The notes: a model not told the origin generated them from the letters alone. A stretch of DNA of 63,237 nt from Bradymonadales bacterium (GCA_041656175.1 JBBAEA010000003.1:1-63237); one strand, 5' to 3'; shown: positions 52,589 through 57,428, numbered from the stretch's first letter. Program-made: numbers and translations.

Positions 52589-54682
52589 TTGTTTTTATGG
52601 GCTTTATTTCGAAAGTTCAACAAACTCCAGGGGAAGACCGATGCATTCCATCGTCTGATGACCCTGTTAGATGACAATGCCTTTCCAGATATGGCTAGCG
52701 TTTCACGCGAGCGTGTAGCTCCGTATGTCATCCGTACTGAAAAACGCAAGGCCATCGATACCGACGGCAAAGCACTCTTTAAGCCTCGGCGTACGCAGAT
52801 GGCTCCAGTGGCTTGGGAGAGTCGTCATTACTTGCAGCAGCTTCTCTACGAGGCGGTGACCGACTATGTGCGCGAGGGCTACAATCAGGCTATGCGCGAG
52901 AAGAAGCACCACATCGGCTTCCTGATGATCCTGATGCAGCGCCTAGTGGTTTCCAGCACCCGGGCGATTTGCAGCACGCTGGAACGACGGCTCGCGGCGC
53001 TCAAGGAAGGCGAACAGAAGGCCAGCCTGCGCCTAACAGAACTGGAAAACGGCGTGCAGGGAGTGGAAAGCCCAGACGATGAAATGCTTGAGCTCTACGA
53101 CATGGATGGCCAAGAGCTGCTCGATGAGCTGCTCAAATCTCATGTCTCGGCTCTGCAGAGCGAAGGCAGTCATGTGGAGACCCTGCTCAAAGCGGCGGTT
53201 CGCTGCGAACAAGTAGGTTCTGACGCCAAGGCCGAGGCGTTGATCGAGTGGATCTACGAACTGCAGGCCGAGGAAAACGAACCGGATCTGAAGGTGTTGA
53301 TCTTCACCGAGTTCGTGCCCACCCAGCAGATGCTGAAGGAGTTTCTGGAAGCCCGTGGCATATCGGTCGTCACCTTGAACGGCTCCATGGATATGAAGGG
53401 ACGTAAGCAGGCTCAGGACGCCTTCCGCAAATCGCACCGTGTGCTGGTTTCCACTGACGCGGGCGGTGAGGGTCTAAACCTGCAGTTCGCTCATGTCATC
53501 ATCAACTACGATATCCCTTGGAACCCGATGCGGCTGGAACAGCGAATCGGTCGCGTGGATCGTATTGGGCAGCCCAAGACGGTGCGTGCGATCAACTTCG
53601 TGTTTGAGGATTCGGTCGAGTTCCGGGTCCGCGAAGTGCTGGAGCAGAAGCTCTCGGTGATCTTCGATGAGTTTGGTATCGACAAGACTGGGGACGTGCT
53701 CGACTCCGCCCAAGCTGGTGAATTGTTTGAGGATGTGTTCGCCTCGGCTATCCTTAATCCAGATGGTATCGAAACCTCAGTCGATCACACGGTGGCTCAG
53801 CTTCGCGATGAGATTCAGAAGCTGCGCGAGCTTTCCGCCGTCTATGGCATTTCAGAAGAACCAGATGTGCAGGTGGCTGAGCGTCTGCGTACCCATCCTC
53901 TATCCCATTGGGTGGAACGGATGACGGTGAACTATCTTAATTCTCACGGTGGCGTAGCCAGCCGCAAACGTTCCTGCTGGGATCTGAATTGGCCGGACGG
54001 TCAAAAGCACCGCAAAGTTGTGTTCAACGCCCGAGAAGCGGATCGTCTGGACGACGCAACCCTGCTCAATCTTGAAAACAGTTGTGTCCGTGGACTAGCC
54101 TTGAACCTGCCGCAGATCGCGGCTGGCCAGCCTTTGCCTTGCGTAAGCGTGAGCGGATTGCCAAGCAGCATCTCCGGGCTCTGGGGGCTCTTTGAGATAC
54201 GTCTTCGAGCCGGGATGCACCAGAAGACACAACTGTTGCGTATTCCCTTGCTGCGGCGGGGATATCTCAGTGTGTTCCTGAATGAGGAAGGTAAACTGTT
54301 TCTGCCCACGGCTCGGCATATCTGGGATGTGCTGCAGACAGCGGAAGCCCAGGTGCAGGCCACCCTCGGCCAGAACGAATCCATTATCGCCCATGAACGG
54401 TTGCAGGAAGCGGCCGAGAAAGCCGGACATGAGCTGTTTGACGCATTACAGCAGGCGCATCTCGCCTCTGTGGCTCGCGAGGAGGAACGTGGCAACGTCT
54501 CTTTTGCCTCGCGTCGCAAGGCCATCGAGAGGGTTGGATTGCCAGAGGTACGGCAATTCAGGTTGTCACGTTGCGATGCGGACGAATCCGAGTGGCGGCA
54601 TGAACTGCAATCAGCAAGGCAGATCGTGCCGGAAATCCGACCGCTGCTGATGTTGCGGATCATCAAAGGAGGCGCTCAATGA
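52589..54682 (+). pseudogene. 5'-truncated SNF2-family helicase (BrxHII-like); only the end of lobe 1, the helicase-C lobe and a C-terminal extension remain
   Basis: Homology begins at (P)(H)QGKTDAFHRLMTLLD, the motif III region. Motifs IV-VI are present (VLIFTEF, VLVSTDAGGEGLNLQ, YDIPWNPMRLEQRIGRVDRIGQ). Walker A and DExH are absent. The ORF opens with TTG and no SD, and the first ATG is codon 24. Confidence 0.65.
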
Positions 54683-56673
54683 GTAGCTGGAGAGACGTTA
54701 TTCTAAAAGAATTTGTTCCCGATGTTAGTAAACTGACCTTAGTCGCGGATCCGGACTACCTGTTGACGGAGGAGAAACTAGTGCTTGATTTACGCGGGCG
54801 CGGCTTCGATCTGATCGAGTTCAGTGATCCCTTTAAATTCAGATATGCCTACGAGTCTAAGTACCGTTCGATCTGGGATCGGGGGGAGCGCACAGATCTA
54901 GTTGTGGTACTCCGCTTGCAGAATGCTGAGCTGGGAACGTTGCCGTACGACCTGCTCCAAGTGGGTCGGAAGCTGTCGTTCAACTTAGGGGAGCTCTTTC
55001 CCAATCTTAGCTACCCGGTCATTGAGAAGCTCGACCAGAGCCTGCTGGACAAGCTATTCGAAGCCCAGCGCAAATCGCAGCTGGATCGCATGGGCGACAA
55101 CGCCACCAAGGATTTCGTTCTCCGTCATGTGTTCAACATTGCGGCGGAACAAATAAGGGGCGATGTGGCGCTGCTCCGGGTATTGCTGAGCATGCACTAT
55201 AAAAAGCTACAGATCCCGCAGATGCTGGCTGAGCGGCTTATCCAAGTTCTGAAGGACAAGAATAGCTTTAAAGGCTGGCCGCTTCCCGAGATCGTTCCGG
55301 ACGATGAGGCCTTCTTCGCCTTTTTGCAGGAACGCTGGCCGCTCTTTCTTTCCCGGCTTGGTAGCGTCAATCAGACGATGGAAGATTCTCTGGATTACGG
55401 CTTCAAGGTTCCCAGCCCTGACCACCTGCCGTTTGACCATCAGGACATCAAGGTTTACATCGACAACCTGTTCCTAGAGGGGAAACTCACCCCCGTCGAG
55501 GTCACAGATATTGAAGTGGATGCTGGATCTTGGGTTTGCTGCGGCATTGCCACCTCCAGCAAGGACAATGACGCGCTTCGGATTTCGCGCCTGTTCGACC
55601 TTGTCGAAAAGGAACTTCCCAATACGGAAGCGCGCTACTCAGACTGGATCGCTTTTGCATTGAAATGGGCCGAACTCTCTTCGCTGGTTCACTGCGGCAA
55701 CAGTACCGAGTATCAGACTAGGCTCAGAGAAATAGGTGATGCAATGAACTCGACCTTCGCCAGTTGGTTGACGGGTCGCTACATTAGTTTGTTCAACTTG
55801 CCACCGACCAATCTGGCCATGCTGCACCATGTACCGCGCTACATGGCTCGAGATATCGAGGACTCTCAAGGCAGCAGTGCCGCGCTGATCGTAGTCGATG
55901 GCTTGGCCTTGGATCAATGGGTGACCATTCGGCAGCTTCTGCAAAAGCAAGATGCCAATCTGTACATGCGCGAATCCGCGACCTTCGCATGGATTCCGAC
56001 GCTGACTTCGGTATCGCGGCAGTCGATCTTTTCGGGCAAGGAGCCGTGCTATTTCCCGTCATCTATCAACTCGACCAACAGCGAAGAGAAACTCTGGGAG
56101 CAGTTCTGGGAAGACCAGGGTCTGCCTAGGTTAGAGGTTGCTTACCAGCGTGGACTCGGTGATGGCGATGCTGCGGGCGTCCTTGAATACGCAATCCCCA
56201 CCAGGAAGACCAAGGTGTTGGGACTGGTTGTGGATAAAGTGGACAAGATCATGCATGGCATGCAACTCGGCTCGGCCGGAATGCACAACCAGATCAAGCA
56301 GTGGTGCCAAGGTGGTTTTCTGGCTGCATTGATCGGCCAACTGTTGGAATACGGCTATGATGTCTGGTTGACGGCCGATCACGGCAACATCCAATGCGAA
56401 GGCAAAGGCCGCCCCTCGGAAGGTGCGATAGCCGATACTCGGGGCGAGCGAGCTCGTGTCTATAAAACGCCGGAGTCCCGCGCTCAGGTAGCTGGGGGCT
56501 TCCCGTTTGCTTACGAATGGGAGCTGGTCGGTTTGCCAGAAGAATATTTCCCTCTGGTGGCCAGTGGCCGCGACGCATTCGTGAACCCAAGAGAATCTAT
56601 CGTAGGTCACGGCGGCATAGCCATCGAAGAAGTCATCGTACCCCTTGTAAAGTTTGAGAGGAAAACACGGTGA
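54679..56673 (+). CDS. pglZ: PglZ-domain alkaline-phosphatase-superfamily protein (BREX-type)
   Basis: AAGGAGG SD. ATGA overlap with the helicase ORF. PglZ core segments LIVVDGLALDQW, IPTLTSVSRQSIFSG, VVDKVDKIMHG, LTADHGN. Confidence 0.8.
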   Translation: MSSWRDVILKEFVPDVSKLTLVADPDYLLTEEKLVLDLRGRGFDLIEFSDPFKFRYAYESKYRSIWDRGERTDLVVVLRLQNAELGTLPYDLLQVGRKLSFNLGELFPNLSYPVIEKLDQSLLDKLFEAQRKSQLDRMGDNATKDFVLRHVFNIAAEQIRGDVALLRVLLSMHYKKLQIPQMLAERLIQVLKDKNSFKGWPLPEIVPDDEAFFAFLQERWPLFLSRLGSVNQTMEDSLDYGFKVPSPDHLPFDHQDIKVYIDNLFLEGKLTPVEVTDIEVDAGSWVCCGIATSSKDNDALRISRLFDLVEKELPNTEARYSDWIAFALKWAELSSLVHCGNSTEYQTRLREIGDAMNSTFASWLTGRYISLFNLPPTNLAMLHHVPRYMARDIEDSQGSSAALIVVDGLALDQWVTIRQLLQKQDANLYMRESATFAWIPTLTSVSRQSIFSGKEPCYFPSSINSTNSEEKLWEQFWEDQGLPRLEVAYQRGLGDGDAAGVLEYAIPTRKTKVLGLVVDKVDKIMHGMQLGSAGMHNQIKQWCQGGFLAALIGQLLEYGYDVWLTADHGNIQCEGKGRPSEGAIADTRGERARVYKTPESRAQVAGGFPFAYEWELVGLPEEYFPLVASGRDAFVNPRESIVGHGGIAIEEVIVPLVKFERKTR

Positions 56674-57428
56674 TGAGAAAGAGACATGAAGTCATTGGCA
56701 TTAAACAGGTGATTCGCTTCGAGTGGATGCAGAAGGCTGCCAATCTACTGCTGGCAGGACTCGACGCCAAAACCATCCGCCATGAGCTGCACGAGTTCCT
56801 TAAGGACAGAAAAGGCAATGGCACAGTGGGCGAAAGAAGCGAAAAGACCCGAACCTTCGCGGTCGACAACTTGATGAAGATCTGGGTATCCCCGGATCCC
56901 GACTTGAACCCGTTCCGGGAAGCATCGTTGGAGTTTCTGCTAGAAAAACCGTCCGTGGCTTTGCCGATCCAATGGGGGATGATCTCGGCATCCTATCCCT
57001 TTTGGTTCAACGTGGCTCGCCAGACCGGCCGTCTCTTGGCTTTGCAGAACCAGGTGACTCAGACACAGATCATCAATCGCTTGAAGGAACAGTATGGCGA
57101 TCGACAAACGGTGAGCAGCTGTGCGAAATATGTTATCCGCTCCTTTGTTGCTTGGGGTGTTCTAAAGGATTCCGAGACCAAGGGCTGCTATGAGAAACCC
57201 GCTCCCGTGAGCATTGCCGAGCCAAACCTAGCCATCCTGATGTTCGAGTCAGCACTCCTAGCCACCCCGGAGGCCAAGAGCGCATTAGGGCTGATCCTGC
57301 ACAACCCGGCATTCTTCCCATTCCAGCTCCCCGCGTTGACGGGAGATTTTGTATCCCATCGCAGCGACCGGATCGACGTGCTTCGTTACGCACTGGACGA
57401 TGAGCTGCTGAAATTGAAGGGCATCTAA
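56670..57428 (+). CDS. Hypothetical helical protein in the BrxA (DUF1819) position of a BREX type-3-like gene order
   Basis: GTGATGA overlap with pglZ. 252 aa, predicted all-alpha. The assignment rests on position and size only. Confidence 0.35.
   Translation: MMRKRHEVIGIKQVIRFEWMQKAANLLLAGLDAKTIRHELHEFLKDRKGNGTVGERSEKTRTFAVDNLMKIWVSPDPDLNPFREASLEFLLEKPSVALPIQWGMISASYPFWFNVARQTGRLLALQNQVTQTQIINRLKEQYGDRQTVSSCAKYVIRSFVAWGVLKDSETKGCYEKPAPVSIAEPNLAILMFESALLATPEAKSALGLILHNPAFFPFQLPALTGDFVSHRSDRIDVLRYALDDELLKLKGI

What the first reader, a model, noticed from the sequence alone, without database searches (positions are those of the whole stretch)
52589..57428. Beheaded BREX type-3-like half locus: truncated SNF2 helicase, PglZ and a BrxA-position protein, without methyltransferase or BrxC
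Seen in the sequence:
- The gene order is helicase (SNF2 motifs IV-VI present), then PglZ (VVDGLALDQW, TSVSRQSIFSG, DKVDKIMHG, TADHGN), then a 252-aa helical protein.
- The junctions are ATGA and GTGATGA overlaps.

Established knowledge: in the published BREX classification, type 3 is brxF-brxC-pglXI-brxHII-pglZ-brxA. This matches the 3' half only.

brxF, brxC, pglXI and the helicase ATPase lobe are absent from the window.

Inference: this is either a decaying BREX remnant, or PglZ plus the partner protein has been retained because it works with the downstream nuclease/ATPase genes in the same operon.
Basis: partly seen in the sequence, partly recalled or inferred. Interest (0 to 1): 0.7.

Follow-up and report, generated by a model that had tools for sequence, protein, structure and literature searches.

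The report
Broken BREX type-3 defence remnant
This is the left-over back half of a known six-gene anti-phage system (BREX type 3), cut in the middle of its helicase gene and joined to scraps of two other defence systems, so it is an ordinary case of defence-island decay and not a new system.

Summary
Window 52627-57428 carries the 3' half of a type-3 BREX operon. It holds brxHII from codon ~282 of ~965, so the TUDOR domain and helicase motifs I-III are lost. It also holds a full BREX-3 pglZ and a full type-3 brxA. brxF, brxC and pglXI are absent from the whole 63-kb contig.

In 39 of 48 related loci with enough flank, the same genes sit in an intact brxC-pglXI-brxHII-pglZ-brxA operon. The truncation is therefore derived.

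The downstream "nuclease/ATPase" genes are not partners:
- hamA is an orphan Hachiman nuclease. Only 22 codons of hamB remain.
- ptuA-ptuB is a complete Septu pair. It arrived with a 3' scar of a type-1 BREX pglX gene.

Upstream, a 193-aa gene is also cut off from its usual operon.

The junction is real: four assemblies carry it. A sister population, 99.9% identical in the flanks, has lost the whole remnant to a mobile-element insertion plus deletion. The remnant ORFs are still clean, with no stops and no changes at invariant PglZ sites, so the loss is recent.

Best reading: a recently beheaded BREX-3 remnant, inactive as BREX, in a fast-turnover defence island. Septu is the only complete system in this string. 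Interest is low.

The parts
51953..52534 (-). Orphan 193-aa gene of the HI_0787_N family (PF27257). In relatives it is the last gene of a 388+365+193-aa operon on mobile elements.
   Evidence: DNA homology to L082 (90%) and L092 (92%) covers only 51955-52538, and no trace of the two upstream partner genes is found.
52539..52626 (.). 88-nt filler of unknown origin (39% GC) between the two truncated cassettes. It is the left deletion/recombination joint.
   Evidence: It has no similarity to any fetched locus. GC content is and the alignment.
52627..54682 (+). brxHII' : the 3' 684 codons of the type-3 BREX SNF2 helicase (residues ~282-965). The TUDOR domain and helicase motifs I, II (DEAH) and III (SAT) are deleted. 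The annotated ORF starts at a TTG at 52589 inside the filler.
   Evidence: The domain map of BrxHII is taken from PMC12839542.
54679..56673 (+). pglZ, full-length type-3 BREX PglZ (664 aa), joined by an ATGA overlap to brxHII'.
   Evidence: NF033449 scores 896.7 bits and PDLC02558 is matched 1-666 of 666. There are no changes at the sites invariant in 60 relatives. The overlap is read.
56673..57428 (+). brxA of the type-3 family (251 aa from the ATG at 56673).
   Evidence: PADLOC BrxA PDLC02444, E 2e-112. It is 84% identical to brxA of intact loci. There is no Pfam BrxA hit.
57447..58265 (+). hamA (DUF1837 nuclease of Hachiman), full length but without its helicase partner.
   Evidence: Pfam HamA and PDLC00161. 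It is 84-86% identical to hamA of L019, L021, L029 and L033, where hamB follows (full length in L019, L029 and L033; cut by the contig end in L021). It has 6 changes at 146 otherwise invariant sites.
58255..58503 (+). Chimeric 82-aa ORF. HamB codons 1-22 (58255-58320) are fused in frame to a 3' scar of a type-1 BREX pglX (about codons 1038-1078 and 1122-1147, with an internal 147-nt deletion). It ends in an ATGA overlap with ptuA.
   Evidence: tblastn HamB 1-22 at 91% identity. PADLOC PglX PDLC02528 positions 1005-1051 of 1125, E 5e-23. blastn and tblastn to L087 pglX. The sequence is read.
58500..59780 (+). ptuA (Septu ABC-type ATPase, 426 aa), complete.
   Evidence: PDLC00307 at 616 bits. 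It is 90% identical over 100% of its length to homologues that lie between pglX and pglZ of type-1 BREX loci.
59777..60376 (+). ptuB (Septu HNH nuclease). It most likely starts at the ATG at 59777 (ATGA overlap, as in relatives), not at 59741.
   Evidence: PDLC00348 at 232 bits and TIGR02646. tblastn to the L087 ptuB covers 59777-60370. The sequence is read.
51703..51845 (.). Host interspersed repeat. It is a direct copy of the one at 60760-60902, and the two bracket the whole mosaic.
   Evidence: Other family members lie at 29.75, 43.1 and 63.1 kb.
60760..60902 (.). Second copy of the host interspersed repeat (85-93% identical to 51703-51845).
51920..57577 (.). Block absent from a sister population (allele Y). 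There it is replaced by ~6.8 kb of an integrative mobilisable element.

Best explanation
The segment is a recently truncated remnant of a horizontally acquired type-3 BREX operon. It is not expected to work as a BREX system.

Ancestral state (inferred from relatives). The ancestor carried the standard order HTH-brxF-brxC-pglXI-[cargo]-brxHII-pglZ-brxA-[hamA-hamB].

Two rearrangements (shown from sequence).
1. Everything upstream of brxHII codon ~282 was removed. The stump was joined, through 88 nt of filler, to the start of a divergently oriented 193-aa gene that also lost its operon partners.
2. hamB was replaced from codon 23 onward by a piece of a type-1 BREX locus, 'pglX-ptuA-ptuB.

Consequences.
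- The truncated BrxHII lacks Walker A, DEAH and motif III, so it cannot hydrolyse ATP. This follows from the sequence plus general helicase knowledge.
- In type-1 BREX systems restriction generally requires all the core proteins (abstracts listed). BrxC and a PglX-type methyltransferase are absent here. I infer that PglZ and BrxA are inert for BREX-type defence here, by analogy with type 1; type 3 has not been dissected.
- HamA lacks the HamB helicase that senses DNA damage and controls it. Hachiman is therefore also disabled (inferred).
- The only complete unit is the two-gene Septu pair (ptuA ATPase plus ptuB HNH nuclease). It probably still acts as an autonomous defence module. It may be translated through the preserved chain of overlapping or closely spaced ORFs.

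The intact reading frames of brxHII', pglZ and brxA reflect how young the truncation is, not a retained function.
For: Truncation is derived.
- The listed homologues are mostly 961-986 aa at 90-93% identity.
- Homology starts at residue 282, at window 52627.
- 39 of 48 non-redundant related loci with at least 6.5 kb of upstream flank have pglXI, a full brxHII and pglZ.

No BREX head.
- tblastn for BrxF, BrxC and PglXI is negative over the 63-kb contig.

Neighbours are scars too.
- The 193-aa gene is orphaned.
- Only 22 codons of hamB remain. In all 8 related loci where the hamB position is covered, hamA is followed by a full hamB.
- A pglX scar lies upstream of ptuA.
- The closest ptuAB pairs lie between pglX and pglZ of type-1 BREX loci.

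The downstream genes are cargo, not partners.
- The slots after brxA and before brxHII hold different genes in different loci.
- None of the 79 loci (L001-L079) examined carries the window's ptuAB.
- ABC-ATPase plus HNH dyads embedded in BREX loci are described in PMC12839542.

The remnant is dispensable.
- In a population 99.9% identical in the flanks, window 51920-57577 is replaced by a mobile-element fragment, while ptuAB and prfC stay in place.

The junction is not an assembly artefact.
- It is present in L101, L102 and L103.

The event is recent.
- Terminal-branch pN/pS is 0.19, 0.27 and 0.27, inside the range of intact loci.
- There are 0 changes at invariant PglZ sites.
- There are no stops in 4797 nt. 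Under neutrality this bounds the time since loss of function to about 1.6% divergence or less.

Foreign origin.
- The BREX block is 54-56% GC, against 48% for the contig and 39-45% for the adjacent island.

HamB controls HamA: PMC12278908 abstract.
Against: - The three remnant ORFs are perfectly open and retain all invariant PglZ residues, including the metal-site motifs. This is also what continued selection would produce.
- Translational coupling is preserved along the whole string, and the hamB'::'pglX fusion is in frame. This could be chance (about 1 in 3) or could be selected.
- Pairwise omega for pglZ (0.17) and brxA (0.15) is only modestly above the baseline of 0.10 and 0.09. Relaxed constraint is not demonstrated.
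- Expression was not tested. The promoter scan gave no signal above chance (4 sites found against 5.7 expected).
- The rest of the genome could not be searched for brxC or pglX acting in trans.
- The requirement for BrxC and PglX is established for type-1 BREX, not for type 3. Type-3 systems 'remain less explored' (PMC12839542).
Confidence: 0.82

Rival explanations
1. PglZ and BrxA, possibly with the C-terminal domains of BrxHII, are kept because they still do something useful. PglZ could act as a metal-dependent nuclease guided by the DNA-binding BrxA. It could act alone, with BrxC and PglX supplied from another locus in the genome, or as an extra effector alongside HamA and Septu in one co-translated string.
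For: - The ORFs are intact, with no changes at invariant PglZ sites.
- pN/pS stays well below 1.
- Overlapping stop/start codons are preserved from brxHII' through ptuB.
- PglZ of type-1 BREX is reported to be a nuclease (PMC12205998, title and abstract).
- Auxiliary nucleases in BREX loci are proposed as 'backup effectors' (PMC12839542).
- About 23% of type-3 BREX loci lack BrxHII altogether, so the helicase may be partly dispensable (L038, L045 and L064).
Against: - No other locus among 79 pairs these genes with the window's ptuAB.
- The cargo around BREX-3 is interchangeable.
- A sister population has lost the whole block.
- The clean ORFs are equally explained by a young deletion.
- The native promoter region (HTH-brxF end) is gone, and no promoter signal is detected.
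- brxHII-less natural loci still keep brxC and pglXI, which this locus lacks.
Confidence: 0.1
2. The arrangement is an assembly chimera. BREX-3 genes are more than 90% identical across many organisms, so a metagenome assembler could have stitched a foreign BREX-3 segment into this contig.
For: - Contigs of the same population break or change path inside the BREX block. L102 is identical to the window up to 52884, then 13% divergent to its end. L101 ends inside pglZ. L080 and L081 lack the block.
- The window is a metagenome-type contig.
Against: - The left junction (193-aa gene, filler, brxHII codon 282) is reproduced exactly in three further assemblies from different samples.
- L101 agrees with the window at 99.993% over 13.4 kb, through 55398.
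- The window's hamA is colinear and full length across the right boundary of the block.
- The L080 and L081 ends are explained by a real mobile-element insertion whose end coincides with the element's canonical terminus.
- Only 55399-57577 rests on the window contig alone.
Confidence: 0.04
3. The short helicase is a natural short isoform or variant, not a truncation. On this view, full-length members of its family begin near this point.
For: NCBI annotated a 697-aa CDS. The 90% cluster contains many 340-800-aa members.
Against: - The short cluster members that were checked are contig-end artefacts.
- Nearly all of the 120 best homologues are 961-986 aa and carry the SNF2/ResIII/DEAD N-lobe; the few shorter ones are on short contigs and were not checked.
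- The break falls inside the RecA1 lobe, right after motif III.
- The first 13 residues of the ORF are read from unrelated filler.
Confidence: 0.01

Closest known systems
Type-3 BREX (brxF-brxC-pglXI-brxHII-pglZ-brxA; Goldfarb et al. 2015 classification as summarised in PMC12839542)
   Same: - pglZ belongs to the BREX-3 clade (NF033449).
- brxA belongs to the type-3 BrxA family.
- The helicase belongs to the BrxHII family at 92-93% identity.
- Gene order, overlapping junctions and spacing match intact loci such as L001, L003, L019 and L033.
   Different: - brxF, brxC and pglXI are missing.
- The first ~281 residues of BrxHII (TUDOR domain plus the RecA1 lobe with motifs I-III) are missing.
- The upstream HTH gene and promoter region are missing.
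- It is therefore a fragment, not a system.
Hachiman (HamA nuclease + HamB helicase; PMC12278908)
   Same: hamA is full length. It is 84-86% identical to hamA genes that sit directly after brxA in several intact BREX-3 loci.
   Different: hamB is reduced to 22 codons fused to foreign sequence. The sensor and controller of the nuclease is therefore absent.
Septu (PtuA ATPase + PtuB HNH), as cargo embedded in type-1 BREX loci (L087-L090; OLD-ABC + HNH dyads in PMC12839542)
   Same: ptuA is 90% identical to copies that lie between pglX and pglZ of type-1 BREX. The ATGA coupling to the preceding pglX stop is preserved. Both genes are full length.
   Different: Here the pair sits outside any complete BREX locus. 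It is preceded only by a ~180-nt pglX scar and followed by host intergenic DNA.
Natural brxHII-less type-3 BREX variants (L038, L045, L064; 23% of type-3 loci per PMC12839542)
   Same: They show that the helicase gene is a frequent site of loss or rearrangement in this family.
   Different: Those loci keep brxC and pglXI and lose the helicase. The window keeps the helicase tail and loses brxC and pglXI.

Membership tests
Type-3 BREX | PglZ of the BREX-3 clade | tested here: met
   NF033449 BREX_PglZ_3 scores 896.7 bits against a cut-off of 250. PADLOC PDLC02558 is matched full length.
Type-3 BREX | BrxHII SNF2 helicase, full length with ATPase motifs | tested here: not met
   Only residues ~282-965 are present. 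Motifs I-III and the TUDOR domain are absent.
Type-3 BREX | BrxA-type DNA-binding protein after pglZ | tested here: met
   PADLOC BrxA PDLC02444, E 2e-112; 84% identical to brxA of intact loci. Homology to Pfam BrxA/DUF1819 was not detectable.
Type-3 BREX | BrxC/PglY ATPase | tested here: not met
   tblastn with BrxC of L001 and L003 gives no hit in the 63-kb window. The rest of the genome could not be tested.
Type-3 BREX | PglXI (N6_N4_Mtase) methyltransferase | tested here: not met
   tblastn is negative. The only methyltransferase nearby is an unrelated type IIG enzyme on the other strand.
Type-3 BREX | BrxF | tested here: not met
   tblastn is negative.
Hachiman | HamA (DUF1837) nuclease | tested here: met
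   PF08878 at E 1.8e-12 and PDLC00161 at 365 bits.
Hachiman | HamB helicase adjacent to HamA | tested here: not met
   Only codons 1-22 remain, at 58255-58320.
Septu | PtuA ATPase | tested here: met
   PDLC00307 at 616 bits, matched 1-422 of 424. Homologues match at 90% identity over 100% of the length.
Septu | PtuB HNH nuclease directly downstream | tested here: met
   PDLC00348 at 232 bits. TIGR02646 scores 46.3 bits against a cut-off of 52.15, which is below threshold. Weak Pfam HNH hit. ATGA overlap with ptuA.
Type-1 BREX | PglX methyltransferase | tested here: not met
   Only a ~180-nt 3' fragment is present, at 58319-58499.

The most novel reading that the evidence does not exclude
The most novel reading the evidence does not exclude is that the BrxHII tail, PglZ and BrxA form a self-sufficient effector sub-module. 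PglZ would act as a nuclease, BrxA as a DNA binder, and the RapA-like C-terminal domains as a scaffold. The sub-module would keep working without methylation. It might be driven by a brxC/pglX set elsewhere in the genome, or be coupled to the co-translated HamA and Septu genes. The locus would then be a natural 'minimal BREX effector' experiment.
Probability: 0.06. Interest if true: 0.6.

Novelty: already known. Interest (0 to 1): 0.2.

Why it matters
Mainly as a caution for annotation. Defence-finder pipelines will see PglZ, BrxA, a BrxHII-like helicase, HamA and PtuAB in one string, and may call partial or novel composite systems. In fact only Septu is complete.

It is also a compact, well-resolved example of how defence islands turn over:
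- Cargo cassettes move between BREX loci of different types and carry scars of their previous host operon.
- Truncations cut through operons.
- A sister population shows the next step, complete loss through a mobile-element insertion and deletion.

It does not open a new mechanistic question.

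Tried and rejected
- I first guessed that the non-HamB part of the 82-aa ORF came from the 3' end of the type-3 pglXI. A direct comparison rejected this. PADLOC and DNA alignment then showed that it is a type-1 pglX scar.
- I considered that the 143-nt repeats at 51.7 and 60.8 kb were IS ends of a composite transposon. 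Alignment shows they belong to a host interspersed palindromic repeat family that is also present elsewhere in the contig.
- The short (~431 aa) members of the helicase's 90% cluster looked like other beheaded copies. The one examined is a contig-end artefact.
- An exact-sequence look-up of the window's PglZ returned nothing.
- A profile search of PDB sequences with a type-3 BrxA alignment found no BrxA structure.
- hhalign of that alignment against a type-1 BrxA gave only E 0.046 and probability 1%. None of the 24 members hit Pfam BrxA.
The single-sequence AlphaFold model of BrxA was too poor (pLDDT 44.6) for a fold search.
- Promoter and terminator scans gave no more sites than shuffled sequence.
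- The dN/dS tests could not separate 'recent loss' from 'continued selection'.

Full report
**1. What is in the sequence**

The + strand between 52.6 and 60.4 kb carries a tight string of ORFs:
- 52589-54682 (697 aa)
- 54679-56673 (664 aa)
- 56670/56673-57428 (252/251 aa)
- 57447-58265 (272 aa)
- 58255-58503 (82 aa)
- 58500-59780 (426 aa)
- 59777-60376 (198 aa)

The junctions are ATGA (54679), TGATG within GTGATGA (56670-56676), a GGAGG Shine-Dalgarno sequence before 57447, an 11-nt overlap at 58255, ATGA at 58500 and ATGA at 59777.

**2. Identity of the three genes in the finding**

- The 697-aa ORF has only a Helicase_C domain in Pfam. It matches the PADLOC BrxHI|BrxHII model PDLC02500 from model position 274 to 931 of 933 (1094 bits).
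- The 664-aa protein is a full-length BREX-3 PglZ. NCBIfam NF033449 scores 896.7 bits against a cut-off of 250, and PADLOC PDLC02558 is matched 1-666 of 666.
- The 252-aa protein matches the PADLOC BrxA model PDLC02444 over its whole length (E 2e-112).
- The 252-aa protein has no detectable sequence similarity to Pfam BrxA/DUF1819, to BrxA structures in the PDB, or to a type-1 BrxA by profile comparison. It is therefore a member of the type-3 BrxA family. Its deeper homology to type-1 BrxA rests on the literature (PMC12839542), not on my tests.

**3. The helicase is truncated, not naturally short**

- A search of 5.8 billion proteins gave thousands of homologues. The best 120 are mostly 961-986 aa, 90-93% identical, and carry the SNF2/ResIII/DEAD N-lobe.
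- BLASTP to a 965-aa Thiohalocapsa marina protein aligns window residues 14-697 to its residues 282-965 without a gap (92% identity).
- At the DNA level, homology to intact loci starts abruptly at window 52627, immediately after the codons for '...LLLSATPH' (motif III). The 'VVVDEAHRL' motif II lies about 45 codons into the missing part.
- By the published domain map, the lost part is the N-terminal TUDOR domain and the RecA1 lobe with motifs I-III. What remains is the RecA2 lobe and the RapA-like C-terminal domains.
- The first 13 residues of the annotated ORF are read from unrelated filler. The TTG start has no support.

**4. The BREX head is not on this contig**

tblastn with BrxF, BrxC and PglXI from two intact loci finds nothing in the window. 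The window is a complete 63,237-nt contig.

The 52 kb upstream carries housekeeping-type genes. From about 41.5 kb onward it carries a low-GC island on the minus strand. That island holds unknown genes, two outer-membrane beta-barrel paralogues, an apparently intact type IIG restriction-modification enzyme (47208-50567) and a degraded IS3-family element (50575-51685).

**5. What intact relatives look like**

Gene neighbourhoods of two full-length helicases and 74 loci found with the PglZ protein in species-representative genomes show a standard operon:

HTH - brxF - brxC - (small 23S_rRNA_IVP gene) - pglXI - [variable cargo] - brxHII - pglZ - brxA - [variable cargo]

- Of 48 non-redundant loci with at least 6.5 kb upstream of pglZ, 39 have pglXI plus an uninterrupted full-length brxHII plus pglZ.
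- The remaining 9 are of two kinds. Some have large insertions. Others are degenerate in other ways: L038, L045 and L064 have no brxHII, and L030 and L078 have a disrupted brxHII.
- Among loci with less upstream flank, L039 also has a disrupted brxHII, and L065, L073 and L079 have a disrupted pglZ.
- None is beheaded in the way the window is.
- The literature states that BrxHII is present in 77% of type-3 systems.
- The cargo slots hold different genes in different loci. L001 has an ATPase plus a 207-aa protein. L003 has an AAA_15/DUF3696 protein plus a 357-aa protein. Several loci have Hachiman after brxA. L092 has a UvrD-like helicase plus DUF2290.

**6. The downstream genes are two more fragments and one complete system**

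- The 272-aa protein is HamA. It is 84-86% identical to HamA in L019, L021, L029 and L033.
- In all 8 loci where hamA follows brxA and the hamB position is covered, a full ~1050-aa hamB follows.
- In the window only HamB codons 1-22 survive, at 58255-58320 (91% identity).
- From 58319/58320 the sequence switches to the 3' end of a type-1-like pglX. PADLOC PglX PDLC02528 is matched at positions 1005-1051 of 1125 (E 5e-23). DNA matches L087 pglX at 9673-9794 and from 9924 on, with a 147-nt in-frame internal deletion.
- ptuA and ptuB follow.
- The closest PtuA homologues (90% identity, for example in Desulfomicrobium orale and L087-L090) lie inside type-1 BREX loci between pglX and pglZ. They have the same ATGA overlap to the pglX stop.
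- The Septu pair was therefore cargo of a type-1 BREX locus. It reached its present place with a scar of that locus, replacing hamB.
- ptuA and ptuB are full length. Septu is the only complete system in the string.
- Embedded ABC-ATPase plus HNH dyads in BREX loci have been described.

**7. The left neighbour is also a fragment**

- The 193-aa minus-strand gene (51953-52534) belongs to the HI_0787_N family (PF27257).
- In close relatives it is the last gene of a three-gene operon (388 + 365 + 193 aa) on elements that carry serine recombinases and a LexA-like repressor.
- In L092 that operon lies next to a BREX-3 island.
- In the window, homology to L082 and L092 (90-92% nt) covers only 51955-52538, and the two partner genes are absent.
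- The 5' ends of two divergently oriented operons are therefore joined through 88 nt of orphan sequence.
- A single deletion across both promoter-proximal halves would explain this. That is an inference. I found no locus with the required ancestral divergent arrangement.

**8. Is it real, and is it stable?**

- The junction between the 193-aa gene, the filler and brxHII codon 282 is present in three further assemblies:
  - L101 (ENA ERZ27247346) is 99.993% identical over window 41953-55398.
  - L102 (GCA_964449095.1) is identical up to 52884.
  - L103 (SRR8449813) is 100% identical over 51783-52859.
- L102 then becomes 13% divergent until its contig ends. This is probably an assembler path into another organism's BREX-3, or possibly gene conversion.
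- A fourth data set (JGI 3300060803; L080 and L081) is 99.9% identical in both flanks but lacks window 51920-57577.
- Its two contig ends match, at 100% identity and in consistent order and orientation, positions 7342-7468 and 14041-14164 of an element in L098 and L100.
- That element encodes TetR, an ABC transporter, a sigma-70-like protein and a large serine recombinase, with a relaxase just outside the retained part.
- The right junction coincides with the element's canonical end, which is shared by seven contigs. The left junction is internal to the element.
- The simplest history, which is inferred, is integration into hamA codon ~44 followed by a deletion. That deletion removed the left part of the element, the start of hamA, brxA, pglZ, brxHII' and the 193-aa gene.
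- The remnant is thus dispensable in nature, while ptuAB and prfC are kept.

**9. Selection**

- Pairwise Nei-Gojobori omega between the window and relatives is 0.088 for brxHII-C, 0.174 for pglZ and 0.152 for brxA. Intact-intact pairs at the same dS give 0.070, 0.103 and 0.090.
- Parsimony on NJ trees gives terminal-branch pN/pS of 0.19, 0.27 and 0.27. This is in the upper part of the range of intact loci but inside it.
- The window has 0 changes at the PglZ sites invariant in all 60 other sequences, 2 in the BrxHII tail and 1 in BrxA.
- HamA has 6 changes at 146 invariant sites, the most of 10 sequences. The sample is small.
- 3.9% of possible single substitutions in the three ORFs create a stop codon, and there are none. 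If the genes have been neutral since the truncation, at most about 76 substitutions (1.6%) have accumulated, at 95% confidence.
- The data fit a young truncation. They cannot exclude continued selection.

**10. Mechanistic reading**

Shown:
- The helicase lacks its ATP-binding lobe.
- BrxC, PglXI and BrxF are absent from the contig.
- HamB is absent.
- PtuA and PtuB are complete.

Established knowledge:
- HamB senses DNA damage and constrains and then releases HamA.

Inferred:
- BREX-3 and Hachiman functions are lost here.
- Septu still works as an autonomous ATPase-HNH defence pair.
- The open frames upstream are residual.

Expression is unknown. The native promoter end of the operon is gone, and consensus scans show nothing above chance.

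**11. Comparison and novelty**

The locus is a fragment of a known system type, type-3 BREX, next to fragments of Hachiman and of a type-1 BREX, and next to a complete Septu. It fails the membership test for a BREX system on four of six defining genes. Nothing about it requires a new kind of system.

It is a tidy illustration of cassette traffic between BREX loci and of stepwise loss, and a warning for automated defence-system calls.

The contig probably comes from a Bradymonadia-type MAG. This rests on the name of one near-identical neighbour protein, so confidence is low to moderate.

Noticed in passing
window 47208-50567 (-), 50575-51685 (-): An apparently intact type IIG restriction-modification enzyme (PADLOC PDLC03610 at 1180 bits; N6_Mtase plus Type_ISP_C) lies next to a degraded IS3-family element. 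The element has orfA plus an orfB split in two, and orfB lacks the rve core.
   Followed up: partly
L001-L079 (BREX-3 loci): BrxHII, PglZ and BrxA are 90-99% identical in amino acids across very distant phyla (Desulfovibrionales, Chromatiales, Nitrosomonas, Synergistaceae, Lentisphaeria, Phycisphaerae, Clostridiales). dS between them is only 0.2-0.6. In L002-L005 the locus sits beside conjugation genes (TraG/TrwB). This points to very recent and wide horizontal spread of one BREX-3 lineage.
   Followed up: partly
L006-L079, pglXI region: PglXI is mosaic. Its body is only 48-65% identical between loci, while its last ~50 residues and the flanking brxC 3' end are 96-99% identical. This looks like cassette exchange of the specificity-determining methyltransferase between conserved recombination arms.
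   Followed up: no
L038, L045, L064; L030, L039, L078; L065, L073, L079: Other degenerate BREX-3 loci exist. Three lack brxHII but keep brxC-pglXI-pglZ-brxA. Three have brxHII interrupted. Three have pglZ split or internally deleted.
   Followed up: partly
window 29740-29940, 43120-43225, 51703-51845, 60760-60902, 63100-63237: A host-specific interspersed GC-rich palindromic repeat family (REP/MITE-like; core ...GGGGCGTCGCGGGG...CCCCGCGGAGGGGG...). The two most similar copies are direct repeats that bracket the 193-aa gene plus the whole BREX/Hachiman/Septu mosaic.
   Followed up: partly
L080 1-124, L081 1-127; L098, L100: A sister population carries ~6.8 kb of an integrative mobilisable element (TetR, ABC transporter, large serine recombinase) in place of window 51920-57577. 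The element's ends are 100% identical to contigs from other metagenomes, including a human-gut assembly.
   Followed up: yes
L102 (GCA_964449095.1), corresponding to window 52885-53565: This MAG contig is identical to the window for 10.9 kb, then becomes 13% divergent inside brxHII' until the contig ends. It is either an assembler switch to another organism's BREX-3 or gene conversion.
   Followed up: partly
window 57447-58265: The orphan hamA has 6 substitutions at positions invariant in 9 other HamA proteins (F31L, P78L, D211A, H254Y, M270T, H275N, in alignment columns). This is more than any other sequence and may be an early sign of relaxed constraint after loss of hamB. The catalytic D/E-x-K signature is kept.
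   Followed up: partly
window 43385-44131 and 44149-44895 (-); 45666-46322 and 46329-46928 (-): There are two tandem gene duplications in the low-GC island: a pair of 248-aa proteins of unknown function and a pair of outer-membrane beta-barrel proteins, with 79-95% identical direct DNA repeats.
   Followed up: no
L082-L086, L092: The HI_0787_N (PF27257) 193-aa gene is normally the last gene of a conserved three-gene operon (~388 + 365 + 193 aa, with no Pfam hits for the first two). The operon sits on elements with serine recombinases and a LexA-like repressor, and in L092 it lies next to a BREX-3 island. It is possibly an uncharacterised defence or accessory module.
   Followed up: no
L091 9528-11877: Another genome has a pglX 3' fragment (a 158-aa ORF) directly before ptuA-ptuB, with brxA-brxB-brxC of a type-1 BREX nearby on the other strand. 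The 'pglX-scar plus Septu' unit therefore recurs.
   Followed up: partly
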